Below, piece by piece: positions 7,783 to 61,469 of a DNA stretch of 64,000 nt (the first letter of the stretch is position 1; every line of letters starts with the position of its first letter). The notes beneath the pieces are model-generated. The model did no database searches. It was not told the DNA's origin and was given only the letters and a program-made list of their open reading frames with translations. The position numbers and the translations under genes were made by a program. The stretch comes from Thermoanaerobaculia bacterium (GTDB lineage Bacteria > Acidobacteriota > Thermoanaerobaculia > UBA5066), in contig CAVRAY010000001.1 in NCBI GenBank assembly GCA_963719225.1, forward strand, positions 3,552,001 through 3,616,000, in the 5' to 3' direction.

Positions 7783-7874
7783 CCCGCAGCAACCCTTCAC
7801 GAAGGAGAATCCAGAAAATGGACTGCGTGTTCGTCGAGCTCAAGGAGCCGAGCTCCTGAACGGAAGGGTTGTGG

Positions 7875-9577: not shown

Positions 9578-10816
9578 TCAGCGCGTGGAGATCTCGACGT
9601 CGATCTCCGCCGAAGGTGCGGCGGCATGCTCCTGGAACGCGTCCGCGCGCTGGTCCTTGGCCTTCTCGTCGCGCAGGACGCCGTCGGCGACGGATACGAC
9701 CGGAGCGAAGACGAGGCCGCGCACGAACTCGAGGAGCGCGGGCTGCACGGGACGCGCGTCGAGCGCGCGCACCGACGTCACCCGGCCTTCGGCGTCGAGC
9801 GTGATGCGGAACGCGGACACCTGCGTCGAGGCGACCGAGGGTCGGCCCTCGGGGGCGCGGCGCAGCATCCAGCGCCGCGCGCCCTCGCCGCGCACGACGA
9901 CGGACCAGGCGCGGGCGGGCTCGGCCTTACCTCCGACCGCACCCACGGCTTTGGCAGCAGGAGCCGGGGCGTTCGCAACCTGGCTCGCGTCGGCATCGAC
10001 AGCCGGCGCGGCCGCCGCCGCGGCCTGTCGCCGCGGCTGAGCGGCTCCGGCATCGCTTTCGGTCTTCGAGAGCTTCTGCCGCAGCTTGTCCTGAGTGTCC
10101 TGCTTGTATCCCCTCTCCTCGGAAGCTGCCTCGTTCGCAGCGATGACGGAAGCGGCCGGCTGCTCGTTCAGCTTCTTCTTCGACTCGACCTTCTCCGCGT
10201 CCGCCGGCTGGTCCTCTCGCCTCGTTTGCAGCTTCCCTTCCAGCCTGTTATTCGGCGCGCTCGCGACGACGGAATCCGGCGTGCGCTCGGCAGGCGGTGC
10301 GGGCGCAGCCGGCGCGGCGAGGCTCCGGCTTCGCGCGGACTCCTTCAGCGCTTCTTTCGGAGCCTCCGGCTCAGGACGCTTCGCGGGGCTTTGTCCCTCT
10401 CGGCCTTCCGTCAGGAAGACGGAGACCGGCCCTTCCACGCGGCGCTGGGGCGCCGGCCTGAGGACGGCGATCCCGACGGCCACGATCCCGAGAAGCGCCA
10501 TCGCCCCGATGGCCATCCCGGGCGGCGGATAGAAACCGAATCGATGGAAGACGGAGCCGCCGCGCCCGCCCTTTTCGGCCACGTTCGAGTTCACGCGCGT
10601 CGCCAGAGCGAAAGGCGGCGCGGGAACGGGCAGATCGCGCGTCTCGGTGACGATGCGCTGGAGCTCCTCCTTGCGGCGCGCGGCGGCCGGGTCGTGCGCA
10701 AGGAGGGTCTCGAGATCGTGCTCCTCTTCCGGCGAGAGGTCGCCGTCCAGGGATCGCGACAGCAGGAGGTCGAGGTCCTCGTCGGAAAGCCGCGGAACGA
10801 ACGGACGGGCGCTCAC
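9578..10816 (-). CDS. Putative anti-sigma factor (N-terminal ASD, TM helix, low-complexity linker, TonB-C-like end)
   Basis: GTG overlaps the sigma factor stop; LLSRSLDGDLSPEEEHDLETLLAHDP; TM segment AMALLGIVAVGIAVL. Confidence 0.75.
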   Translation of the reverse strand: MSARPFVPRLSDEDLDLLLSRSLDGDLSPEEEHDLETLLAHDPAAARRKEELQRIVTETRDLPVPAPPFALATRVNSNVAEKGGRGGSVFHRFGFYPPPGMAIGAMALLGIVAVGIAVLRPAPQRRVEGPVSVFLTEGREGQSPAKRPEPEAPKEALKESARSRSLAAPAAPAPPAERTPDSVVASAPNNRLEGKLQTRREDQPADAEKVESKKKLNEQPAASVIAANEAASEERGYKQDTQDKLRQKLSKTESDAGAAQPRRQAAAAAAPAVDADASQVANAPAPAAKAVGAVGGKAEPARAWSVVVRGEGARRWMLRRAPEGRPSVASTQVSAFRITLDAEGRVTSVRALDARPVQPALLEFVRGLVFAPVVSVADGVLRDEKAKDQRADAFQEHAAAPSAEIDVEISTR

Positions 10817-11418
10817 GAGAGCTTCTCCCTCAGGATCGCGCGGCCGCGCGCGAGGCGGCTGCGCACGGTTCCGATCGGAACGGAAAGCACCTCGGCGACC
10901 TCGTCGTACGAGAGCCCCTCGAGGTCGCGCAGGAGGACGGCCATGCGGAACTCCTCCGGGAGCTCGCGGATCGCGGCGCGCAGGCGCGTGCGGCGCTCCT
11001 TGAGAACGGCGTTTTCCTCGGGCGTCGAGGAGGGGTCGGCGGCGTCGTCGAGGCTCGCGAAAGGATCGTCCTCCCGCGCGCGGCCCGAGATGAAGACTGC
11101 CCTGAGCCGGCCGAGCGTGCCGTGGCGGGCGCGGGCGCGGTTGAGCGCGATCGCATAGAGCCACGTCTTCAGGCTCGAGTCGCCGCGAAAGTTCCCGAGT
11201 CCGTGATAGGCGCGCAGGAACGTCTCCTGGACGACGTCCTCGGCTTCCGTCGGGCCCACGACCCGCGCGGCGAGCGAGAACACCATCGTGGAGTAATGGC
11301 GGACGATCTGCTCGAACCCGAGGATGTCGCCGGCAAGGAATCGGCTCAGGGCCCGCTCGTCGCCGGGCCAGTCGCGTTCTCCCGTGTACGGATACGCGGA
11401 GGCCGTCACGGTCGCCAT
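10813..11418 (-). CDS. ECF sigma-70 family factor (SigW/RpoE-like)
   Basis: AEDVVQETFLRAY, SSLKTWLYAIALN and GLSYDEVAEVLSVPIGTVRSRLARGR. Start may be 11418 or 11475. Confidence 0.92.
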   Translation of the reverse strand: MATVTASAYPYTGERDWPGDERALSRFLAGDILGFEQIVRHYSTMVFSLAARVVGPTEAEDVVQETFLRAYHGLGNFRGDSSLKTWLYAIALNRARARHGTLGRLRAVFISGRAREDDPFASLDDAADPSSTPEENAVLKERRTRLRAAIRELPEEFRMAVLLRDLEGLSYDEVAEVLSVPIGTVRSRLARGRAILREKLS

Positions 11419-50436: not shown

Positions 50437-50934
50437 TCAGTTCGTGATCGGGGACGCGGCGGAGCCGACCGCGCCGTCCTGCGTGTACGAAACCTGCAGG
50501 CACGCGCTGCCGGACGTCGGGTGCTGATAGAGGTACACGTAGTCGAACCCGCCGCCGTCCCGGAGCTTCAGCTCGGCCGGGCGGAAGGAGCCGGACCGGA
50601 ACGCGCGCACGAACCCGGTGTCGTACGGGGGCGTCTGGGAGCACCCGCCGCGGAACTCGCGGACGTTCTCCGTCGGCGCCAGGACGCGCAGCTTCAGGCC
50701 CTGCACGATCCGGGTCGTCTCGTCGGCCGTGAGGGGAAAGGTGCAGGCCCCCGCGCGCAACGTACCGAACATGTGGCATTTCACGCTCGCAAGGGCGACA
50801 TCCTGGCGGGCCATGAGGCTCTTCACGTCGCGCGCGAGGTCTCCGCGCGCCCACAGGTTCCACGCGGCGCGGCATCCGGTCGCGAGCACGACGGCGACGA
50901 GGAGAGCCAGCGGCCTCAGGCGCCGGGATGCCAT
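50437..50934 (-). CDS. Hypothetical lipoprotein
   Basis: MASRRLRPLALLVAVVLATG-C lipobox-like N-terminus. Confidence 0.6.
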   Translation of the reverse strand: MASRRLRPLALLVAVVLATGCRAAWNLWARGDLARDVKSLMARQDVALASVKCHMFGTLRAGACTFPLTADETTRIVQGLKLRVLAPTENVREFRGGCSQTPPYDTGFVRAFRSGSFRPAELKLRDGGGFDYVYLYQHPTSGSACLQVSYTQDGAVGSAASPITN

Positions 50935-52868
50935 GCGGCGATTCTGCCCGCCAGGGCGGAGGCGGCGACGACGTACGGACTCCCGAGGTACACGTGTCCG
51001 GGTCCGCTTCGCCCGGGGAAATTGCGGTTGATGGCGCTCACCGTGACTTCCCCGTCCCGCGTCGAGACGCCCGGCCCCGCGTTGATGCAGGCGCCGCAGC
51101 CGGGCTCGACGAGGCGGGCGCCCGCGCGCGTGAAGAGCTCGAGGTAGCCCTTCTCGCGGCACCACTCCTTCACGTGGCGGCTCCCGAACTGGATGTAGAA
51201 GGCGACGCCCGGCGCGACACGCCGTCCCCGGGCGACGCCCTCGGCGAGGACAGCCGCGAGCATTTCCATGTCTTCGCGCTTGCCGGCCGTACAGGAACCG
51301 GCATAGGCGATGTCGATGGAAATCGGGAGTGGGAGGTCGGAGATCGCGACGCCGTTTCCCGGATCGCCGGGCAGCGCCACGATGGGAGCGAGCGCGCCGA
51401 CGTCCAGGACGAGCTCCGAATCGAACACCGCGTCCTCGTCGGACGCGAGACCTTCGCAGGCGCGCCGTGCCTCGTCGAGCGACGTTTCCCGCCGCTCGAC
51501 GAGGAAACGCGCCGTCGTCTCGTCGGGGGCAACGATGCCCGAGAACGCTCCCGCTTCGGCCGCCATGTTCGTGAGCGTGGCCCGCTCGTCGACGGAAAAG
51601 GCCGTGACCGCTTCGCCCGAGTACTCGAGCACTTTTCCGATCGCGCCGCCGCCTTTCACGTAGGGGTGCGCGAGAAGCGCGAGCATGACGTCCTTGGCGG
51701 CGATGCCGTGCGGCCGCGCGCCCTCGAGGACGACGCGGATCGTGGCCGGGACCTTCACGCGCACGTCCCCCGAGAGCCACGCACACGCGACTTCCGTCGT
51801 GCCGATCCCGAAAGCCAGGCAGCCGAGCGCGCCCGCGTGTGTCGTGTGCGAGTCGGACCCGACCACGACCTGCCCGGGAAGGGCGTGGCGCTCGAGGACG
51901 AGGGAATGGCAGATGCCCTCGCCAGCCCCGTAGAGCCGGACGCCCTGCGCGGCCGCGAACTTCTCCTGCCGCGTCGCGAGCGAATCCGCGAGTGCGAGGA
52001 GGCCGCGCGCTTTCCGTTCCTCGGGCATGACCTCGCCCAGGAGGGAAAGGTGATCGCGAAAGAGAAGGACGGAGCCGGGATCCTCGACGCGCGCGCCCGT
52101 CCCCAGCTCTCCCTCGAAGCACGCAGCCGCCATGGGCGTGACGTACTCGTGCGAGAAGCGCAGGTCGGCCCGCACGAAGCACGCGTCGCCCGGCTCGACG
52201 GCGGGGACTCCCGTACCCGCCGCAGCCGGGTCCCTGACGACGTGACGCGCGAGGATCTTCTCGACGAGCGTCATCGCGCGGGGCGGAGTCGTGACGGGCG
52301 CGGGCGACTCGCGGCCCGACAGACGCGCGCGCGTGTAGGGAAGGAGTCCGCCCGCTTCGATCACGTCCCGTGTGATCGGGTCCTCCCCTTCCGTGAAGAA
52401 GGAGAGCGGAATTTCCCGGCCTTCCCGGACGCGCTCGAGAATCGAGAAATCCGTCGTCAGGAGCATTCCGAGGTTGATCGCGTTCTGCCGATAGATGCGC
52501 TCGAAGCTCTCGGCCACGAGGAGGCGGATGCCGGCGGCTCGCTCCGCGTAGGGCGCCTGCTCGCGGGACGAGCCCTTGCCGCGCCTGCGCCCGGCCACGG
52601 AGACCGCGAACCCCCCACGCCGCACGGCGTCTTCTCCGACCGGCCGCACGCCGTCACGGCAGGTCAGGCCGAGGTAGGCGAACCTGCCGAGCGCGGCGTC
52701 GTGGTGAAAGCACGTCCAGCCCGGCGTGATCTCGTCGGTCGAGACGTCGTCGCGCAGCTTCTGCGCCGGGTCGTTCGCGTCCCACGCGAGGTCCTCCCCT
52801 GCGAACTGGCGCGCGAGGAGACCGGCGTCCTCGGTCAGAAAGAGGATTCGGCCCGAAATGAGCACCAC
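50916..52868 (-). CDS. Aconitase-family hydro-lyase, fused small (swivel) and large subunit (LeuD-LeuC order)
   Basis: VSTDEITP and GKGSSREQA (swivel domain); GICH, GSDSHT, GSCT, PGCGAC and NRNFPGR. Confidence 0.88.
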   Translation of the reverse strand: MVLISGRILFLTEDAGLLARQFAGEDLAWDANDPAQKLRDDVSTDEITPGWTCFHHDAALGRFAYLGLTCRDGVRPVGEDAVRRGGFAVSVAGRRRGKGSSREQAPYAERAAGIRLLVAESFERIYRQNAINLGMLLTTDFSILERVREGREIPLSFFTEGEDPITRDVIEAGGLLPYTRARLSGRESPAPVTTPPRAMTLVEKILARHVVRDPAAAGTGVPAVEPGDACFVRADLRFSHEYVTPMAAACFEGELGTGARVEDPGSVLLFRDHLSLLGEVMPEERKARGLLALADSLATRQEKFAAAQGVRLYGAGEGICHSLVLERHALPGQVVVGSDSHTTHAGALGCLAFGIGTTEVACAWLSGDVRVKVPATIRVVLEGARPHGIAAKDVMLALLAHPYVKGGGAIGKVLEYSGEAVTAFSVDERATLTNMAAEAGAFSGIVAPDETTARFLVERRETSLDEARRACEGLASDEDAVFDSELVLDVGALAPIVALPGDPGNGVAISDLPLPISIDIAYAGSCTAGKREDMEMLAAVLAEGVARGRRVAPGVAFYIQFGSRHVKEWCREKGYLELFTRAGARLVEPGCGACINAGPGVSTRDGEVTVSAINRNFPGRSGPGHVYLGSPYVVAASALAGRIAAWHPGA

Positions 52869-52933: not shown

Positions 52934-53374
52934 TCACCGCCGCGGCGCCGTCGGCGAAGGGCTCGGCGTCTGGCAGGGCGCGGAAGCAGGAGTCAGCACC
53001 TCGACGGGGATGCGGTCGTAACCCGCGACCTCGACGGGATAACGCAGCCGCAGCTCGCCCTTGCCGACGGGCGCCTCGGCGTCGATCTTCAGCGCGAGCG
53101 TCAGCTGCGGCACGGGAAAGGAACGGCGGCTGGCGAGGTGAACGCTGACGCCGGGCAGGGAAACCGGCTCGACGCGGTCCGCGTTGTCGACGCCGAAACC
53201 GGTCACGACGAGGTCGAGCGACGTGCCCTGCACGAGCGGCAGGGTCCGGCCGGGCCCGAAGCGGCGCCCCCCGCAAAGCGACGCCGCCCCGAAGGATTCC
53301 ACGGCGCCCGTCACATCCGACATGGACAGGAGAAGCAGGACGAGGCAGGTGCCCGCCGCGAGAAGGCGCTTCAC
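52934..53374 (-). CDS. Exported Ig-like hypothetical protein
   Basis: GTG overlaps the upstream stop; signal peptide; beta-rich; Pro/Thr tail. Confidence 0.6.
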   Translation of the reverse strand: MKRLLAAGTCLVLLLLSMSDVTGAVESFGAASLCGGRRFGPGRTLPLVQGTSLDLVVTGFGVDNADRVEPVSLPGVSVHLASRRSFPVPQLTLALKIDAEAPVGKGELRLRYPVEVAGYDRIPVEVLTPASAPCQTPSPSPTAPRR

Positions 53375-54639
53375 GGAGTTCCCTTCGGCGGCGCGGTGAA
53401 GCGCAGCTCGGCGGCTCCGCTCGCGGCCAGCGTCTGGCCGTCCGTTCCGACGGCTTCCACCGTCCAGGTCAGAACCGAGTCCTTGGCGCGGTCCTGGAGA
53501 AAAGGCGGCGCCGCGTACGAGTCGGTCCCGGGAGCGAGAAGCGCCTCGAGGAGAACGGCTCCATCCGGACCCCGCACGACGAGCCGGTAGCCCGCGGCCG
53601 ATCCGACGCGCGTGAAGCGGAAGACCACTCCTTCGCCGGCCGGAAGCAGCGACCGATGGGCGGGCGCGAGGAGGATCAGGCCGCCCGTGGCTCCCGGGAG
53701 GAGCGCGGCGGGCGCGACTCCCACGAAGTAGCGGAGCGTCGGAAGAGGGAAACCCGCGACGGAGGCGGAGTGGATCACCCCGGCGCCCGCGCCGATCGCC
53801 GCAAGGCTCGAGTCCCCTTCCTTGTCGTCGGACGCCTCGATGCGCAGCAGGATCTGGTGCAGCCCTTCGGCGGCCGTGGGAATCCTCTTCGGGTCCGGGC
53901 CCGGCAGCGTCACGCGGCCCGTCGGCGGCAGGAACACGTCGAACCGGTCGAGCTCGGTGTAGCGGCGCTGGAGCGGACGCTCGGCCGGAGGGAGCGTCGC
54001 CTCGGTCAGGAGATCGCGGTCCGTCGGCGGCTCGTCCTGCGGGAACACGACTTCCCATCGGCCCTTGAGGCGTCCCGTCCCCGTGTAACGGATGTCGGCC
54101 TTCAGCTTCGGGGCGATCTCCCCGCGCTGTACGGAGAGAACCGGGCGGTCGATGTCGAAGGACAGCGTGACGTCGGTGAGCGAGAGCGGCGTCCCCGCGC
54201 CGCCGAACGACGGCCGGCACGTGACGAAGACGTACTCGTCCGGGCCGCCCGCCATGGAAGCGAACCGGCGGACGTAGAAGAACGGCGAGAGCGCCCCGCG
54301 CTCGGCGGCCTGATAGGCGCGCCGCGCCACGTTCGCGGGGATCGTCATGATGTCGGTGTACACCCCGCCCGCGAGGCGGGACTGGTCGTAACGCAGCGGA
54401 AGCCGTCCGTAGACCGTGTTCGGGTCGCACCGAAAACCGATGTCGGGCGTCGCCGGGATGATCTCTCCGCACCACGTGGCCTCGACCGGGGTCTGGTTCA
54501 CGAGGCCCGCGAACGTGATGAAGACGGTTGTGGAGCTCTGGCTGCTGACGTTCACGCCCGTGGGATTGCGCTGGATCGCGCCCTGCGCGGAAGTCCCCGC
54601 CAACAGGATCGGAAGGAGGAGGTGGAGGCGGTATCGCAT
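53371..54639 (-). CDS. Exported multi-beta-domain hypothetical protein
   Basis: Signal peptide MRYRLHLLLPILLAGTSAQG-A; three Cys in the N-terminal domain; host-like codon use. Confidence 0.75.
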   Translation of the reverse strand: MRYRLHLLLPILLAGTSAQGAIQRNPTGVNVSSQSSTTVFITFAGLVNQTPVEATWCGEIIPATPDIGFRCDPNTVYGRLPLRYDQSRLAGGVYTDIMTIPANVARRAYQAAERGALSPFFYVRRFASMAGGPDEYVFVTCRPSFGGAGTPLSLTDVTLSFDIDRPVLSVQRGEIAPKLKADIRYTGTGRLKGRWEVVFPQDEPPTDRDLLTEATLPPAERPLQRRYTELDRFDVFLPPTGRVTLPGPDPKRIPTAAEGLHQILLRIEASDDKEGDSSLAAIGAGAGVIHSASVAGFPLPTLRYFVGVAPAALLPGATGGLILLAPAHRSLLPAGEGVVFRFTRVGSAAGYRLVVRGPDGAVLLEALLAPGTDSYAAPPFLQDRAKDSVLTWTVEAVGTDGQTLAASGAAELRFTAPPKGTP

Positions 54640-54648
54640 CGTTTCGTC

Positions 54649-56736
54649 CTAGAAGGCGCTCAGGCTGATCCCCGAGGAGACCACCCACGTCTTACGAAAA
54701 GTGACGACGCCGAGCACGACGTCGCGCGTCCGCGTCTCCTGGAAGGCGTAGCGCAGCAGGATCTGTCCCGTGATCCCGCGCTTGCCGCGCCGGGGCGGCT
54801 CGAACCGCCAGGCCGTCTGCGCATCCACGGTCCAGGTACGGGAAGACGCCGTGTCCGCGTCGTTTCCGCCGTCCGTCCGCGAGGCATTCGTCGCGAACGA
54901 CAGCGGCGGGAGGGGCCGGAGTCCGAACGTCACCTGATAGCGCTTCGTGCGGTCGACGTTGCCCGTCTCCTTCGCGGCTGCGCGTTCCCACCCGTACTGG
55001 AGAGCGAGGTCGACGGCCGGGGAAGGCGTCAGGTTGAACGAGGCGACGTTCGCCGTGTTGAGGAAGTCCGCCGTCTCGCGTCCGACCTGCCGGTTGTCCT
55101 GATCGGAGTAATTGAAATGCCAGCCGAATCGGGCGGGGCCGGCGGTCCAATCCACTCCGGCCGTCTGGCCGAGGCTCACCTGATCGGGCAGTTGAGTCGG
55201 CGAGAAGCCTCCTCCTTGCGGATCGTTCCCCGCGAACTGGTGGGTCTCGTTCACGCTCCAGCTCAGCTGGGGCAGCCACCAGGCAGGCGCCGGGCTTCCT
55301 CCCAGCGCTCCGAGCGGAACGGCGAACTGCCCCGCGGCTCGCCGCGTCCTGGTCTTGAGGATCGAGGTGAGATCCGCCAGGTTGTCCTCGAGCCACGCGT
55401 ACGAAAGCTGAAGGGCTGCCGGTCCGAAGGCGGCGTTCGCCTCGAGGACGTCCTGCTGCTGGTCGGACTGTAGGGTGGCGGCCACGCTCCGGTACTGGGG
55501 ATCGATCCGCTCCCGTCGGTACCCGAGCGTGAACGTCACCGGGGTCGACGGACCGAGCGTGACTCCCTTCAGGACGTCGACGTTCGCCGTGGCGAAGTAG
55601 GCCGAGCGCCACGTCGGCGCGAGGGGAACGACCTTCGCTCCCTGCTCGAGCAGCGGATCCGGCGGCGCCTCGAAGCGATTCCGGGAATATCCGCCCTCGA
55701 CGCGGAATCGGCCCGAAAAAAGGCTCGACGCGAGCGAGACACCGCCGCCGCGGCTCGTCTCGGCATCCGACACGGAGCCGCGGTTCACGCTCGTGCGCGG
55801 CAGGAGGGACCCGTCGACGAGCGTCGTGTCGACGTGCAGCGTGCCCGGAGCCGACGGAACGAGCTCGAGCCCGAGCGTCCCGGAGTAGACGCGATGCTCC
55901 GCCGTCTCGAGGCCCAGGAAATTGTCCCATCCGACGATCGACGTTCCGTTCAGGGCCGCCAGGGACAGCGTCACCGGGCCCAGGGAAAAGGCGGCCCTCC
56001 CTCCCCGGCTGTTGAAACCGTTGATGAGGTGCCGGGAAGCGCCGACGCTGAGGCTGCCCCACTCGAGAGCGGCCCCCGGGACGGCGAGCTTCGTGGCCCA
56101 GCTCGCGAGGTCGACGCGGTCCGCATCCCGTCCGCGCTCTCCGAAGCGCAGCGCATCCTCGGCACGCTGGGCGCCCAGCACGCCCATCTGGAAGGCGAAC
56201 GTCGCCTGCGATCGGGCGAGCTCGACGCCGAGGCTCGCCTGGCCGGTCAGGTCCTGAAATGTCCGCCGGGGCGGGGCGGCGTCCTCGAGCGCGTGACCTT
56301 CCGAGAGCTGCCCTTTCAGCGTCAGGTCGATCTTCGGGGCGATCTCCGCCTTCTCGAAACCTCCCACGGTGAGCACCCGCAGCTTCAGCCGCGCGACTTC
56401 CTTCCATCCGGAGCTCGACACGAGCGTCACGACGATCTCCTGCTCGCCCGACGGAAGGGGGGCGAGCTTCGGCAGGTATCGCCGGCCCCGCGGCGAAACT
56501 TCCAGGAAATCGGAGACGTCCGTTCCGCCGATCAGAACCGCGATCCGCCCTTCCGCGTCCGCCGGCTCACGCGAGAGCACGAGCTCCACCGGATCGCGCC
56601 TCCGGATCCAGTCCTGGCCCCGGCCCCCGAGTGTTACAACGAGGTCGTCGGCCGACGACGACGAACCGAGAAGGCACAGAACGACGAGGCCCATCGCGTA
56701 CCCGGATCGGGAGCCTGACCCGCAATCCCGCCTCAT
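54649..56736 (-). CDS. Putative outer-membrane beta-barrel protein with N-terminal Ig-like domain
   Basis: Signal-like hydrophobic stretch, long run of alternating amphipathic beta strands and terminal Phe (SSGISLSAF). Confidence 0.72.
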   Translation of the reverse strand: MRRDCGSGSRSGYAMGLVVLCLLGSSSSADDLVVTLGGRGQDWIRRRDPVELVLSREPADAEGRIAVLIGGTDVSDFLEVSPRGRRYLPKLAPLPSGEQEIVVTLVSSSGWKEVARLKLRVLTVGGFEKAEIAPKIDLTLKGQLSEGHALEDAAPPRRTFQDLTGQASLGVELARSQATFAFQMGVLGAQRAEDALRFGERGRDADRVDLASWATKLAVPGAALEWGSLSVGASRHLINGFNSRGGRAAFSLGPVTLSLAALNGTSIVGWDNFLGLETAEHRVYSGTLGLELVPSAPGTLHVDTTLVDGSLLPRTSVNRGSVSDAETSRGGGVSLASSLFSGRFRVEGGYSRNRFEAPPDPLLEQGAKVVPLAPTWRSAYFATANVDVLKGVTLGPSTPVTFTLGYRRERIDPQYRSVAATLQSDQQQDVLEANAAFGPAALQLSYAWLEDNLADLTSILKTRTRRAAGQFAVPLGALGGSPAPAWWLPQLSWSVNETHQFAGNDPQGGGFSPTQLPDQVSLGQTAGVDWTAGPARFGWHFNYSDQDNRQVGRETADFLNTANVASFNLTPSPAVDLALQYGWERAAAKETGNVDRTKRYQVTFGLRPLPPLSFATNASRTDGGNDADTASSRTWTVDAQTAWRFEPPRRGKRGITGQILLRYAFQETRTRDVVLGVVTFRKTWVVSSGISLSAF

Positions 56737-56744
56737 CTGACTTC

Positions 56745-56773
56745 AGAGCGCAATTCGGTGCGAAACCGGCTCA
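56745..56773 (-). promoter_or_regulatory. Putative ECF promoter TGAGCC-N16-GCGCT (leftward)
   Basis: Minus strand TGAGCC ggtttcgcaccgaatt GCGCTCT, 8 nt before the ATG at 56736; second copy at 59864. Confidence 0.65.
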
Positions 56774-56798
56774 CCCCCGCGGCTAGAATCTGCGCAAC

Positions 56799-57368
56799 GT
56801 GCCGGAGACAGGAGCCGTGACGCGTCTGCTCTTGCAATGGCGGGCAGGCGAGGAAGCCGCGTTTGGCGAGCTCATGGAGCTCGTCTATCGGGATCTCCGC
56901 CGGCGCGCCGACGCCTACCTCAGGCGCGAGCGCGCGAACCACACGCTCGCGCCGACGGGCCTCGTGCACGAGACGTATCTCAAGCTCGTGGGAGACGCCG
57001 GCATCCCCTGGAGCGATCGCGCGCATTTCTTCGCGGTGGCCGCTCGCGCCATGAGACAGATCCTGGTCGACCACGCCCGAAAGCGGTCCGCGGCGAAGCG
57101 GGGCGGCGAGGCGGAGCGCGTCACGCTGACCAACCTCGCCGCGAGCGGCGGTGAAATGAACGTGGATCTCGTCGCTCTCGACGCCGCCCTCGAGCGCCTC
57201 GCCGCGCTCGACCCGGTCCAGGCCCGGCTCGTGGAGCTGCGGTACTTCGGCGGGCTCACGATCGAGGAAACCGCCGACGTGCTGGGTTCATCGCCGGCGA
57301 CGGTCAAGCGCGCCTGGGCGTCGGCCCGCGCCTTTCTTTTCGCGGAGCTCCGAGGGGAGCTGACATGA
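56799..57368 (+). CDS. ECF sigma factor of the Ser/Thr-kinase-associated type
   Basis: VTRLL..W, HTLAPTGLVHETYLKL, AARAMRQILVDHAR, VELRYFGGLT and TVKRAW. Confidence 0.92.
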   Translation: MPETGAVTRLLLQWRAGEEAAFGELMELVYRDLRRRADAYLRRERANHTLAPTGLVHETYLKLVGDAGIPWSDRAHFFAVAARAMRQILVDHARKRSAAKRGGEAERVTLTNLAASGGEMNVDLVALDAALERLAALDPVQARLVELRYFGGLTIEETADVLGSSPATVKRAWASARAFLFAELRGELT

Positions 57369-59866
57369 GCCTCGATCCGGATCGCTGGAGTGAGGTGCGA
57401 AGGCTTCTCGAGGAAGCGCTCGAGCGGGAGGGGGCGGACCGGGACGCCTTCCTGAACGATCTCGGATCCCGCGACGCCACGTTGCGCGAAGAGGTCGGCC
57501 GCCTCGTGGCTTCGGCCGAAGGGGCGGATGGTTTCCTCGAGGGTCCCGTGCTCCAGCCCCCCGACGACGAAGACACGCTTCCCGCGGGAACCGTCCTCGG
57601 TGCCTGGCGCGTCGAACGTGAGATCGCGCAGGGCGGCATGGGTCGCGTGTTTCTCGCCGTCCGCGCAGACGGCGCGTTCCAGCAGGAAGCGGCCCTCAAG
57701 GTGATCTTCTCCGGGCTCGGAGGCGCCGCCATCGGAAAACGCTTCCGGAACGAGCGCCAGATTCTCGCCGGCCTCGAGCACCCGAACATCGCGCGGCTTC
57801 TCGACGGCGGGACGACGCCCGACGGGCGTCCCTTCTTCGTCATGGAGTACGTCGCGGGCGAGCACCTCCTCGAGTACGCCCGCCGTCAGGCCCTGTCGGT
57901 CGACGAAAAGGTGGCGCTCTTCCGGAAGATCTGCGGGGCCGTCGCCTACGCGCACCGGCACCTCGTCGTTCACCGGGATCTCAAGCCCGGGAACATCCTC
58001 GTGACGAGAGAGGGCGAGCCGAAGTTGCTCGACTTCGGGCTCGCGAAGGTGCTCGATCCGGCCGGATCCGAGCTGACGCCGGGCGCCACGGGGGCTCTCG
58101 GGCGCCTCATGACTCCCGAGTACGCGAGCCCCGAACAGGTACGAGGGGACTCGATCACGACGGCGAGCGACGTCTACTCCCTCGGCGTCGTCCTCTACGA
58201 GCTCCTCGCGGGCCGGCTGCCTTTCGTCTTCAAGGGCCGCTCGGCCGAGATGATCGCCCGGACGATCTCGGAAGCGGAGCCGCCCCGTCTCGGAAGCGGC
58301 ATCCCCGAGGATCTCGAGAGTGTCGTCGCCATGGCGCTCCGGAAAGAGCCCGCGCGAAGGTACGCGACCGTCGAGCAATTCTCGGGCGACCTGGGCCGGG
58401 TGCTCGAAGGCCTTCCCGTGACGGCGCGGAAGGACACGTTCCTCTACCGCGCGAAGAGGTTCGCGGGACGCCATCGGATCGCCATCGTCGCGACGGTCGG
58501 ATCCCTGGTCCTCCTCGCCGCTTTCGCCGCGGTCGCCCTCGTGCAGGCGCACGTGGCCCGGCTCGAGCGCGAGCGCGCCGAGCGGCGGTACGCGGACGTC
58601 CGCGCCCTCGTGAAGTCCTTCCTCTTCGAGCAGTACGACGCCATCCAGAACCTGCCCGGGACGACACAGGCGCGCGCGCTCCTCATCCGCCGCGCTCTTG
58701 AGCAGCTCTCGAACCTCGAGAAGGAGGCCGGCTCGTCCTTTCCGCTCCGCGGCGAGATGGCGGAAGCGTACGAGAAGCTGGGGGACGTGCTCGGAAGCGG
58801 CGTGTGGTCGAGCCTGGGCGACACGGCGGGCGCCCGCGACGCTTACGGGAAAGCCCTCGCTCTCCGCGAAAGGATCGTCGCGGCGTCGGGCTCGACGCCC
58901 CGGGACCGGGACGACCTGGCGCGCGCCGAGATGCGTCTCGCGAGCTTCCTGTCCCGCTCGAACGAAACGTCCGAGTCCCTTCGGCATGCCCGCCGCGCCG
59001 TGGAGATCCGCGAAAAGCTCGACCCCCGCGCGAACGTCGGCGAAGGGAGAGCCGGGCTCGCCGCCGCCCACCATCTCCTCGGCTACACGCTATCGCGAAC
59101 CGGCGACTTCCGGTCTGCCCTGGCGGCGCATCGAAAAGCCGAATCGGTCTTTCGAGAGGCGTTCGTCGCGAATCAGAAGGACGAGGCCGCGCGCAGCGGA
59201 ATCGGCAAGGCTCTCTACGATCAGGCGGCGATGCTCTCGCGGCTGGAGGAGCCGCGAGAGGCTCTCGAGAAAGGAAGGGAGGCGCTCGACTGGCGGCGCC
59301 AGCTCCAGAAGAGCGACCCCTCGAATGCCCGCACGCGGTTCGAGCTCGCCGCCAGCCTCCACGACGTCGGCGAGTTCCTGGCCGACGTCGACGAGATGCC
59401 CGAAGCGCTCGACAAGGTCCGGGAAGCCGCACGGATCGTCGAGGAGCTCGCGGACGCGGACCCGAAGAGCACGTACCTGCAGATCGCGCGCGCGAACTAC
59501 CGCTCTTCGGTGGGCGACGCCGAGCGGAAGGCCGGCGATCCTCTTCGCGCGCTCGAGAGCCAGCGCATCGCGGTCGCCGTGATGGAGCAGGTCGTCGACG
59601 CCGACCCGGATTGCGGCTTCTGCTGGATCTCGCTCGCGAAGATCTACGACGCGGCTGGAGATGCGCGACTAGCGGTCAAAAAGCCGGTCGCCAGCGTCTC
59701 CGCGCAAGCCGTTCCGTGCGACTTCTGGAGGAAGAGCGGCGAGATCTGGGAACGCCTCCAGGCGGCGGGGAAGCTCCCCGGCGAAGACGCTCCGGCGCGC
59801 GACGCCCTTCTCGCGAAGGTCGCGTCCTGCGCCCCCGGCCGGACGGCCGCTGCACGCCCGCGCTGA
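57365..59866 (+). CDS. Membrane Ser/Thr protein kinase with periplasmic TPR-like domain
   Basis: GGMGRV, HPNIARL, HRDLKPGN, DFG and TPEYASPE; TM helix; helical repeats. Confidence 0.95.
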   Translation: MSLDPDRWSEVRRLLEEALEREGADRDAFLNDLGSRDATLREEVGRLVASAEGADGFLEGPVLQPPDDEDTLPAGTVLGAWRVEREIAQGGMGRVFLAVRADGAFQQEAALKVIFSGLGGAAIGKRFRNERQILAGLEHPNIARLLDGGTTPDGRPFFVMEYVAGEHLLEYARRQALSVDEKVALFRKICGAVAYAHRHLVVHRDLKPGNILVTREGEPKLLDFGLAKVLDPAGSELTPGATGALGRLMTPEYASPEQVRGDSITTASDVYSLGVVLYELLAGRLPFVFKGRSAEMIARTISEAEPPRLGSGIPEDLESVVAMALRKEPARRYATVEQFSGDLGRVLEGLPVTARKDTFLYRAKRFAGRHRIAIVATVGSLVLLAAFAAVALVQAHVARLERERAERRYADVRALVKSFLFEQYDAIQNLPGTTQARALLIRRALEQLSNLEKEAGSSFPLRGEMAEAYEKLGDVLGSGVWSSLGDTAGARDAYGKALALRERIVAASGSTPRDRDDLARAEMRLASFLSRSNETSESLRHARRAVEIREKLDPRANVGEGRAGLAAAHHLLGYTLSRTGDFRSALAAHRKAESVFREAFVANQKDEAARSGIGKALYDQAAMLSRLEEPREALEKGREALDWRRQLQKSDPSNARTRFELAASLHDVGEFLADVDEMPEALDKVREAARIVEELADADPKSTYLQIARANYRSSVGDAERKAGDPLRALESQRIAVAVMEQVVDADPDCGFCWISLAKIYDAAGDARLAVKKPVASVSAQAVPCDFWRKSGEIWERLQAAGKLPGEDAPARDALLAKVASCAPGRTAAARPR

Positions 59867-59890
59867 GCCTCTTCCGTTCCGGAATGCGCT
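59864..59890 (+). promoter_or_regulatory. Putative ECF promoter TGAGCC-N16-GCGCT (rightward)
   Basis: TGAGCC tcttccgttccggaat GCGCT, overlapping the kinase stop codon. Confidence 0.65.
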
Positions 59891-59933
59891 TCTCTCCACA
59901 GAAGGCCCCGAAAACGGGGAGAAGGAGAGAACG

Positions 59934-60461
59934 ATGAAGAAGAGCTGTACGACCCTCGCCCTCGCCGCCCTCGTGGGTCTCGCGCTCGCGCGCCCCGCCG
60001 CGGCGCAGCCGAAGCCCCGGACTTTCAACCCGATCGACGTGAAGGCCGCCTTGAAGAAGGCCGTCGACGCCCAGTTGATCGACTTCGGAAAACAGTTCCC
60101 GCATCTGAAGCTCGCGAACCCCTGCACCACGGAGTTCAACAACGCCGTCGCCGCGGCCAAGGCCGAGCAGACGGGGTGCCTCGACAGCAACAACCCGCCC
60201 GCCGGCAGTCCGCTCGCCGCGTTCAACGCGCTCAGTAACGCGCAGCTCGCCCAGAAGTGCGGCAACCAGACGCTCGACGCGTGCGTCGACGCGGTCGTCA
60301 AGGAGCAAGCGAAGTTCTGCGCAAAGGAGCGCGCCAAGGAGGTGGCCAAGGCCAAGAGCGTCCTTTCGAGGTGCTGCGCCCCTCTCGCCAAGCAGAAGGC
60401 GGATCTCGAGAAGCAACTGGCGGACATCACCGCCGATCTGCAGGGCTGCCTCGGACACTGA
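59934..60461 (+). CDS. Secreted Cys-rich alpha-helical protein
   Basis: AAGGAG RBS, signal peptide ending AAA-Q and eight Cys in the mature chain. Confidence 0.75.
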   Translation: MKKSCTTLALAALVGLALARPAAAQPKPRTFNPIDVKAALKKAVDAQLIDFGKQFPHLKLANPCTTEFNNAVAAAKAEQTGCLDSNNPPAGSPLAAFNALSNAQLAQKCGNQTLDACVDAVVKEQAKFCAKERAKEVAKAKSVLSRCCAPLAKQKADLEKQLADITADLQGCLGH

Positions 60462-60476
60462 GAACAGGAGGTTCCC

Positions 60477-61469
60477 ATGAACAGAAGGCTCACGTCCTAC
60501 GGACCCGCGCTTCTCGCCCTCGTGGCGGTTCTCGCCGCCCTTCCGGCCGCGGCCACGATCGACGTCATGTACGTCACTCACACCTCGGGGCCCGCCCTCT
60601 GCAACAACTTCACGACGAACAACATCGACTACGGCCGTTTCATCTCCTCGGGCGACCGGATCACCGTCGCTCGCGACACGACGTTCCGAGTGACCCTCCT
60701 GGGGTTCGGAGCAGACCTCGCGACGGGGACGGACGACAACGTCACGGGCCTTCGTTCGGAAATCGTCGCCCACGGCACGACGGACAAGCCCGGCGGCGGC
60801 GTCCATTTCGGCCAGAAGGACCAGACCGGCTACGTCCGCGTCGAGATCCGCGTGCACACGGCTGAGCTCGGGAACGGCCACGTGACCGTCAAGTGGCTCA
60901 CGGGCACCGAGAAGATCCCTCTGAAGATCGTGTCCTCCTGCAATCCCACCCCGACGCCTGCGCCGACGGTCGCGGCAACGCCGCGGCCGATCTCGCGCAT
61001 TCCCGTCGCGGGCTCTTCCGCGCCTCCGACCCTCCTGCCCGACCTCACGCCGACGGACTTCGTCAACTTCCGGACGTGCAACCCGAGCTCGTTCGGCACG
61101 TGCGTCCCGGGCCCGAACGACTGCAACGGCGCGTTCAAGGGTCAGAGGAAGTTCACGCAGCCCGACTTGCAGTACGGCGTGAGGAACATCTCGGGAGTCC
61201 CGGTCACGACAGCGTTCACCGTCGTCCTCAAGAAGAAGGACGGGTCGACGCTCGCGACGAACCCGGTGCCCAATCTCGCCGCGAACGGGACCGCCACGTT
61301 CACGTTCCACCGGGCCAACTCCAACGTCTGCGTCGAGCAGATCGGGCCGAACAAGGTGTGCACCTACTGCGCCGTCGCCATCGACGACGCAGGCATCGAG
61401 GTCGTCGTCGACTCCAACAACACGGTCGCCGAGGCCAGCGAGACGAACAACAGCCGAAAGATCCAGTAG
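60477..61469 (+). CDS. Secreted protein with Ig-like domain, Pro/Thr linker and CARDB-like domain
   Basis: AGGAGG RBS and signal peptide; LPDL..VRN..VVVDSNNTVAEASETNN CARDB pattern. Confidence 0.8.
   Translation: MNRRLTSYGPALLALVAVLAALPAAATIDVMYVTHTSGPALCNNFTTNNIDYGRFISSGDRITVARDTTFRVTLLGFGADLATGTDDNVTGLRSEIVAHGTTDKPGGGVHFGQKDQTGYVRVEIRVHTAELGNGHVTVKWLTGTEKIPLKIVSSCNPTPTPAPTVAATPRPISRIPVAGSSAPPTLLPDLTPTDFVNFRTCNPSSFGTCVPGPNDCNGAFKGQRKFTQPDLQYGVRNISGVPVTTAFTVVLKKKDGSTLATNPVPNLAANGTATFTFHRANSNVCVEQIGPNKVCTYCAVAIDDAGIEVVVDSNNTVAEASETNNSRKIQ

What the first reader, a model, noticed from the sequence alone, without database searches (positions are those of the whole stretch)
56745..59890. Identical TGAGCC-N16-GCGCT motif in front of both arms: predicted promoter of the ECF
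Seen: minus strand 56773-56747 TGAGCC-ggtttcgcaccgaatt-GCGCT and plus strand 59864-59890 TGAGCC-tcttccgttccggaat-GCGCT have the same boxes and the same 16-nt spacer. The left copy is placed to give a leaderless mRNA at ATG 56736; the right copy uses the kinase stop codon as part of its -35 box. Inference: this defines the sigma factor's recognition sequence and ties both arms into one regulon.
Basis: partly seen in the sequence, partly recalled or inferred. Interest (0 to 1): 0.7.

Follow-up and report, generated by a model that had tools for sequence, protein, structure and literature searches.

The report
Promoter of a kinase-switched sigma factor
A two-part DNA signal (TGAGCC, 17 bases, CGCT) stands in front of the secreted-protein operons on both sides of a sigma factor/membrane kinase gene pair and at two distant sites in this acidobacterial genome; it is very likely the promoter that this sigma factor reads once the kinase has, as predicted, phosphorylated it, which makes the targets of this known but little-studied kind of switch predictable.

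Summary
Both copies are at the stated coordinates, and the right one starts on the kinase stop codon. The exact 11-base pattern alone is weak: 9 hits in the genome against about 6 expected, and a third window hit lies inside a gene. Comparative data make it strong. De novo discovery on 60 distant homologous loci gave TGAgc-N17-CGCnT. In 72 held-out loci it scored 12 bits or more on the divergent strand in 30 and on the sigma's own strand in 0. Its variable -35 bases follow the adjacent sigma's recognition-helix residues at positions known to read them in ECF sigmas. Two distant sites extend the likely regulon; one is conserved in two relatives. The sigma is ECF43-type (TIGR02999, Thr53, kinase-TPR partner). 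Refinements: the -10 box is better read as CGCT; the motif is family-wide, so two of seven paralogues could cross-read it; the leaderless start is plausible but unproven. No transcription data exist here. The switch is known; I found this motif in no paper I could read, but this scan noted it before on other genomes. Interest 0.42.

The parts
56747..56773 (-). Left promoter-like site: -35 TGAGCC (56773-56768), 17 nt, -10 CGCT (56750-56747); predicted start 56738-56736
   Evidence: 14.4 bits on independent matrix; kept in G017, G020, G019, G006
59864..59890 (+). Right promoter-like site: -35 TGAGCC whose TGA is the kinase stop codon, 17 nt, -10 CGCT (59887-59890); predicted start A59900
   Evidence: 14.5 bits; kept in G017 and before the unlinked orthologue in G006
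59900..59933 (+). Predicted 34-nt leader with a 5-bp hairpin and a purine-rich ribosome-binding site; near-identical copy at G000:C1:1913794 in front of an unrelated DUF11 protein
   Evidence: hairpin -9.1 kcal/mol
56784..56789 (+). TAGAAT, a housekeeping-type -10 hexamer 9 nt before the sigma gene's GTG; likely promoter of the sigma-kinase operon, back to back with the left site
   Evidence: sequence; TAnnnT in this zone in 60 of 145 loci against 26 on the reverse strand and 12-22 further upstream; no full sigma-70 promoter match
56799..57368 (+). ECF43-type sigma factor, 189 aa; Thr53 in place of the acidic sigma2.2 motif; recognition helix SPATVKRAW
   Evidence: TIGR02999 216.6 bits over cut-off 126.15; PF07638
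57365..59866 (+). Hanks-type Ser/Thr kinase, 833 aa: kinase domain, one predicted membrane helix at about 372-390, TPR ectodomain
   Evidence: PF00069 and TPR families; HRDLKPGN, DFG, SPE and hydropathy
54649..56736 (-). Left arm gene 1, 695 aa, no Pfam or NCBIfam family; predicted N-terminal beta-sandwich plus a large outer-membrane beta-barrel
   Evidence: model pLDDT 80.5; only generic barrel matches, query TM at most 0.43
53371..54639 (-). Left arm gene 2, 422 aa, signal-peptide-like start, all-beta multi-domain model; lies beside gene 1 in relatives
52934..53374 (-). Left arm gene 3, 146 aa, signal-peptide-like start, no family
   Evidence: homologues after gene 2 in G017, G019, G006
59934..60461 (+). 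Right arm gene 1, 175 aa, signal-peptide-like start, several Cys, no family
   Evidence: found in 3 of 29 genus genomes
60477..61469 (+). Right arm gene 2, 330 aa, signal-peptide-like start, C-terminal CARDB domain; ends against a convergent UvrD helicase gene
   Evidence: PF07705 E 4.5e-5

Best explanation
The two sites are very likely promoters read by the neighbouring ECF43-type sigma factor, with TGAGCC as the -35 box and CGCT, 17 bases on, as the -10 box. Shown: the sites, their conservation, the gene anatomy and the residue-base covariation. Inferred: the sigma and kinase are made from a housekeeping-type promoter (TAGAAT), not from the sigma's own motif; a signal at the TPR ectodomain activates the kinase; the kinase phosphorylates Thr53, as shown for EcfP and EcfK, so the sigma can bind RNA polymerase. 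The holoenzyme then would transcribe the left operon (outer-membrane barrel plus two secreted proteins, with a 0-2 nt leader), the right operon (two secreted proteins, 34-nt leader) and at least two distant secreted-protein genes. The likely output is a cell-surface remodelling programme; the signal is not known.
For: De novo motif in 60 non-redundant metagenome loci: likelihood ratio 242 against 102-116 in 3 shuffles. Held-out set of 72 loci: 12 bits or more in 30 on the divergent strand, 0 on the sigma strand; after the kinase 2 of 56, reverse 0 of 56. Blind set of 27 phylum-wide loci with the variable columns masked: 10 bits or more in 15 against 2. Among 57 non-redundant sigma-site pairs the top covarying residues are A167 for columns 3-4 and K170 for columns 5-6. 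These align with RpoE Gly168 and Arg171, which Todor et al. 2020 assign to -33 and to -32/-31/-30. Lys170 goes with C at column 6 in 28 of 29, other residues in 3 of 28; 11 of 11 against 0 of 4 in the blind set. The layout resembles the ChIP-derived ECF11 promoter TGATCC-N16-CGTA. The right-arm orthologue in G006 lies on another contig than the sigma and keeps the site. The C2:436065 site is kept before orthologues in G017 and G019. The -11 base is C in all 7 sites of G000 and G017 and T in all 6 of G006, G019 and G020. Genes after family sites look secreted in 29 of 40 against 1194 of 4045 genome genes (crude rule).
Against: No start site, binding or expression data. The exact pattern is not enriched genome-wide, and the general matrix gives no excess over shifted-spacer controls before filtering for intergenic position. 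The phylogeny-aware test on well-supported branches had only 4 pairs (p 0.125); significance (13 to 0 of 15 pairs, p 0.0002) comes from my own test on all branches, many unsupported. A167 did not discriminate in the blind set (11 of 13 against 2 of 2). 65 of 153 loci had no site call and were left out of the covariation. The right site is absent after the kinase in G020, G019 and G006. The ECF Hub text gives a different predicted ECF43 motif, GTC and CAG. The -11 split is one clade contrast, and those 13 sites were picked partly by their TGAGCC.
Confidence: 0.8

Rival explanations
1. The sites are ECF43 promoters but are read by several paralogues as a shared pool, or mainly by another paralogue, so the two arms are not one sigma's private regulon.
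For: The genome has 8 such sigmas. Those at C1:2468136 (SPATVKR) and C1:532193 (STATVKR) share A167, K170 and Q87 and have sites TGAGCC-N17-CGCC and TGATCC-N17-CGTT after their own kinases.
Against: Their own sites differ at -10, -11 or -33. All four G000 sites discussed share CGCT. The -11 base of distant sites follows this orthologue's clade. Family sites lie next to their cognate sigma and follow its residues.
Confidence: 0.12
2. The motif works in the other direction as an autoregulatory promoter for the sigma gene, or is an operator for an unrelated transcription factor.
For: Motif discovery is strand-symmetric, the left site lies 26-52 nt before the sigma start, and many ECFs autoregulate. 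Two of 27 blind loci have a strong site on the sigma strand. Earlier scan notes report the motif before sigma genes in other phyla.
Against: At the right, distant and G006 sites only the TGA-to-CGC reading points at a gene start. Covariation with the sigma's own contact residues in the order known for ECFs fits only that reading. The sigma gene has its own TAnnnT hexamer.
Confidence: 0.05
3. The likeness is chance in a 68% GC genome plus a duplicated piece of leader DNA, with no function.
For: 9 exact hits against 6.1 expected; 5 of the 9 lie wholly within called genes at sites I take as chance, and one more also starts on a stop codon with no gene following. The C1:1913794 copy is a plain duplication, 82 nt at 89% identity.
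Against: Left and right sites share no flanking sequence; boxes stay while spacers change across five genomes; the family-wide and held-out results.
Confidence: 0.03

Closest known systems
EcfK / PknS of Xanthomonas citri (ECF43; PMC13147305, passages read)
   Same: ECF43-type sigma with a Thr in the sigma2.2 motif (QTTA consensus; APTG here), followed by a membrane Hanks kinase; output is an envelope-spanning or secreted system.
   Different: Acidobacteriota, not Xanthomonadales; targets are an undescribed barrel and secreted proteins, not a type VI secretion system; the passages I read give no promoter sequence for EcfK.
EcfP / PknT of Vibrio parahaemolyticus (ECF43; Iyer et al. 2020, seen only as summarised in PMC8999054 and PMC13147305)
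   Same: Sigma lacking the acidic DAED motif, activated by Thr phosphorylation by the next gene's kinase.
   Different: Polymyxin-resistance regulon there; I could not read the paper, so I cannot say whether it gives a promoter motif.
ECF11 promoter TGATCC-N16-CGTA (PSPTO_1043 / Rhodobacter RpoE; PMC5507510, passages and Table 3)
   Same: TGA-n-CC -35 box and CG-initial -10 box in the same order.
   Different: Spacer one base shorter, -11 is T, the sigma is controlled by an anti-sigma and autoregulates.
ECF promoter-recognition code of Todor et al. 2020 (PMC7776599, passages and SI Table S1)
   Same: The residues that covary here are the Gly168 and Arg171 equivalents named there for -33 and -32 to -30.
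   Different: ECF43 is not named in the main text or SI text; Datasets S1 and S2 were too large to read and may already hold such motifs, since divergent-gene upstreams were mined.
ECF Hub entry for ECF43 (PMC7826278, passages and supplement part 13)
   Same: Sigma70_ECF domain, kinase at +1 with one membrane helix and TPRs, S/T in sigma2.2.
   Different: Predicted promoter GTC / CAG from 69 proteobacterial proteins; here TGAGCC-N17-CGCT on the divergent strand in Acidobacteriota.

Membership tests
ECF43 sigma factor | Sigma70_ECF domain (PF07638) in place of ordinary sigma2/sigma4 hits | tested here: met
   PF07638 E 2.9e-54; TIGR02999 over cut-off; feature
ECF43 sigma factor | Ser/Thr kinase gene at +1 with one membrane helix and TPR ectodomain | tested here: met
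   the glycine loop reads AQGGMG rather than GxGGMG, catalytic motifs intact
ECF43 sigma factor | Thr in place of the acidic sigma2.2 motif | tested here: met
   A-P-T53-G; Thr in this column in 144 of 153 homologues; feature
ECF43 sigma factor | No co-encoded anti-sigma factor | tested here: inconclusive
   No anti-sigma family among the 8 neighbouring proteins scanned, but four have no family at all
ECF43 sigma factor | Activation by phosphorylation by the cognate kinase | not testable with these tools
   Inferred from EcfP and EcfK
ECF43 sigma factor | Assignment by the ECF Hub group HMM | not testable with these tools
   HMM not on hand. The 2021 group was listed as proteobacterial only, though the same paper says the group was later expanded to over 900 members
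ECF43 promoter as predicted by ECF Hub | GTC in -35 and CAG in -10 | tested here: not met
   Motif here is TGAGCC-N17-CGCT; only a distant paralogue pair has a GTC-containing -35. A prediction, not a defining feature of the protein family
ECF-type promoter | Two boxes at fixed spacing, pointing at a gene start | tested here: met
ECF-type promoter | -35 bases follow the sigma4 recognition-helix residues | tested here: met
   K170 in all three tests, A167 in two of three; the strict supported-branch test was underpowered
ECF-type promoter | Sigma-dependent transcription start about 10 nt after the -10 box | not testable with these tools
   needs 5'-end mapping or in vitro transcription
Autoregulatory ECF promoter | Motif upstream of the sigma gene on the sigma's strand | tested here: not met
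   0 of 72 at 12 bits; 2 of 27 at 10 bits

The most novel reading that the evidence does not exclude
Kinase-switched ECF43 sigmas, often many to a genome in Acidobacteriota, obey a readable residue-to-base code that insulates paralogues, and this one drives a dispersed regulon for an undescribed outer-membrane export or anchoring system: the 695-aa barrel and the 422-aa beta-sandwich partner form the conserved machine, and the variable secreted proteins under the same promoter are its cargo. The active sigma would also damp its own housekeeping promoter, because the two overlap back to back.
Probability: 0.2. Interest if true: 0.65.

Novelty: new member of a known kind. Interest (0 to 1): 0.42.

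Why it matters
Only a few ECF43 systems have been studied, and in the papers I could read none has a mapped promoter. Relatives of this sigma were found in 123 of 301 Acidobacteriota genomes sampled, up to 11 matches in one genome (the tally includes the unpublished G025). A promoter consensus with a residue-to-base rule lets one predict what each kinase-sigma pair switches on in these mostly uncultured soil bacteria, and gives ready parts for a reporter test or an orthogonal phosphorylation-gated switch. It does not change the known mechanism.

Tried and rejected
Counting the exact pattern genome-wide: no enrichment. General family matrix over the whole genome: swamped by T-rich stretches and no better than shifted-spacer controls. 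With a matrix from 18 A167/K170 sites and a crude gene caller, 8 intergenic, correctly oriented hits reached 15 bits against 0, 5, 0, 1 and 2 in five shifted controls; four of the 8 flank ECF43-kinase cassettes; the scan missed C1:1913794 because the caller ran the gene start over it. Third window match 10347: rejected. C2:83253: overlaps a stop codon but no gene follows on that strand; rejected. Supported-branch independent-pairs test: too few pairs. Careful tree did not finish; a quick tree and FastTree were used. Search for the motif before barrel operons lacking an adjacent ECF43: of 15 loci one clear site just before the gene (G013, TGACCC type), one possible, the rest no better than the reverse strand. 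RNA runs: no RNA holder listed. Sigma-70 scan: no full match. Fold searches gave only generic barrels and beta-sandwiches; Atlas hits were unnamed clusters. PDB sequence search gave one weak ECF hit. The DUF11 gene's N-terminal part had no match in G017 and one weak match in 5 genomes. Literature searches that found no description of this motif: (listings only, except the five papers named).
Full report
Observation. A third exact match at 10347-10373 lies in a coding region. In the whole genome (4.75 Mb) the exact pattern occurs 9 times against 6.1 expected, and other spacers give 0-13 hits. The pattern alone therefore proves little.

Anatomy. The central pair is a TIGR02999/PF07638 sigma factor (56799-57368) and a Hanks kinase with one predicted membrane helix and TPRs (57365-59866). 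The sigma has Thr53 where ordinary ECFs have an acidic motif; 144 of 153 homologues have Thr there. These are the marks of group ECF43. Named relatives of the locus are Thermoanaerobaculia and other Acidobacteriota. The left arm encodes a 695-aa protein modelled as a beta-sandwich plus a large outer-membrane barrel, a 422-aa all-beta protein and a 146-aa protein. The right arm encodes a 175-aa protein and a 330-aa CARDB protein. All five start with signal-peptide-like sequences, judged by eye. The genome has 8 such sigma genes, each followed by a kinase match.

Conservation of the sites. The left site is kept in G017 (sigma 90% identical) and in G020, G019 and G006 (63-64%); the right site after the kinase only in G017. 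In G006 the right-arm genes lie on another contig, beside the same helicase gene and with no sigma or kinase match nearby in the stretch read, and still carry TGAGCC-N17-CGTG; a second, back-to-back site points at a divergent secreted-type gene. In G000 a copy of the right site with its leader (82 nt, 89%) stands before an unrelated DUF11 protein at C1:1913794; only G000 has this second copy among 29 genus genomes. A fourth site at C2:436065 was the top intergenic hit of a genome scan and is kept before the orthologues in G017 and G019, the only 2 of 28 other genus genomes with that gene. The G006 divergent gene is a distant homologue of it (30% over 124 residues, E 1e-8).

Family-wide test. 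Of 80 metagenome loci (the best 80 of 569 confirmed), 74 had enough upstream DNA and 60 were non-redundant. An unguided search gave TGAgc..aTT......tTTt.CGCgTt, likelihood ratio 242 against 102-116 in three shuffles. This matrix never saw the window, and scores the left, right and distant sites 14.4, 14.5 and 14.6 bits and the 10347 match -5.0. On 72 held-out loci (60 picked from the list, 5 others, 7 own paralogues; kin, not independent) it reached 12 bits on the divergent strand in 30 and on the sigma strand in 0; after the kinase in 2 of 56 and reversed in 0 of 56. On 27 further phylum-wide loci, with the variable columns masked, 15 against 2 reached 10 bits.

Link to the sigma. Sites were called in 88 of 153 loci and reduced to 57 at under 80% identity; 65 loci were dropped. 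The strongest covarying residues were A167 for columns 3-4, K170 for columns 5-6 and Q87 for column 27 (z values not corrected for kinship). A167 and K170 align without gaps to E. coli RpoE Gly168 and Arg171. Todor et al. list Gly168 for -33 and Arg171 for -32, -31 and -30, and C-13, G-12 for the -10 box. Setting column 1 to -36 puts column 4 at -33, columns 5-6 at -32/-31 and the conserved CG at -13/-12, one continuous numbering. Kinship control: on supported branches only 4 pairs exist, 3.7 going the expected way and none against (p 0.125). On all branches my own pairing gave 13 to 0 of 15 for K170 (p 0.0002), 10.4 to 0 of 14 for A167 (p 0.002) and 6.5 to 0.1 of 10 for position 87 (median p 0.016, worst 0.125); four crossed controls were not significant. 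In the blind set K170 and position 87 each sorted 15 of 15 sites correctly, A167 did not discriminate.

Orientation and starts. At the right, distant and G006 sites only the TGA-to-CGC direction faces a gene start, and the layout matches the ECF11 promoter TGATCC-N16-CGTA. The numbering above predicts a start at A59900, giving a 34-nt leader with a hairpin and ribosome-binding site, and at 56738-56736 on the left, 0-2 nt before ATG 56736. A weak profile alignment places Q87 opposite RpoE Asn84 rather than Asn80; that reading would move starts about 2 nt downstream and still leave no room for a Shine-Dalgarno site. G017 keeps TCAGATGAGGCGG and the frame, which favours ATG 56736, but has GGAGG before the second ATG, equivalent to 56694. 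Leaderless translation is plausible, not shown. The sigma gene itself has TAGAAT at 56784-56789, and TAnnnT is enriched there across the family (60 of 145 loci), so it is probably transcribed by the housekeeping sigma and not by itself.

Limits on specificity. Two paralogues share A167, K170 and Q87 and have similar sites after their own kinases; a third has Ser at 170 and a TGAGGT site, as the rule predicts. Cross-reading cannot be excluded.

Literature. I read passages of PMC13147305, PMC8999054, PMC5507510, PMC7776599 (plus SI Table S1) and PMC7826278 (plus supplement part 13 of a file cut in storage); Iyer et al. 2020 only as summarised. The only ECF43 promoter statement found is the prediction GTC / CAG. 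Nine searches showed no paper with this motif. Todor's Datasets S1-S2 could not be read and may hold it. Earlier notes of this scan, seen after my own analysis, report the same kind of motif, once as TGAnnC-17-CGC, on other genomes; they are not independent evidence. Claims resting on the unpublished G025: only its share in the tallies.

Verdict. A real, very likely functional ECF43 promoter; a new member of a known kind of switch, with a promoter code that I could not find in print and cargo of undescribed families. Confidence 0.8, interest 0.42.

Noticed in passing
G000:C1:1913786-1913867 (L001 about 7787-7868): Copy of the right site and leader before a DUF11 secreted-type protein; the boxes are identical and the leader differs at one base, but 7 of 16 spacer bases differ. 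Suggests a promoter-leader cassette was copied to recruit a new gene.
   Followed up: partly
window 53371-56736; L005, L013-L017, L021-L035: The barrel gene and the 422-aa gene form a conserved adjacent pair in Acidobacteriota and Gemmatimonadota with no Pfam family, often preceded by variable secreted-type genes, with or without an ECF43 pair.
   Followed up: partly
G000:C2:435419-435970 (L220): 183-aa signal-peptide protein with a Cys-rich tail, no Pfam family, under the conserved fourth site.
   Followed up: partly
G000:C1:2280957 and C1:3173048: Two distant ECF43-like paralogues have a different upstream site, TGTCGT-N17-CGAT, containing the GTC of the ECF Hub prediction. The second gene appears to change frame in a long G run near its start.
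   Followed up: no
L158, L160, L168: A subgroup seems to use a spacer one base shorter (TGAaCG or TGAGCG, 16 bases, CGCAT), which my fixed-width matrix scores poorly.
   Followed up: no
L189 about 2150-2235; L200 about 1327: L189 has two strong back-to-back sites; L200 has a strong site on the opposite strand from the usual one, so some members may be self-driven.
   Followed up: no
G000:C1:57600-63400: Several kilobases of G/T-only and poly-T/poly-A low-complexity sequence, probably an assembly artefact.
   Followed up: no
whole genome G000: 68 tblastn matches to the kinase: a kinase-rich genome, with a cluster near C1:2.26-2.32 Mb.
   Followed up: no
window 9578-10818 (-): Membrane protein with an N-terminus like an anti-sigma domain (label recalled, not tested) and an Ala/Pro-rich body; holds the chance third match.
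   Followed up: no
window 50916-52868 (-): 650-aa ORF that looks like an aconitase-family dehydratase with small and large subunits fused (recalled, not tested).
   Followed up: no
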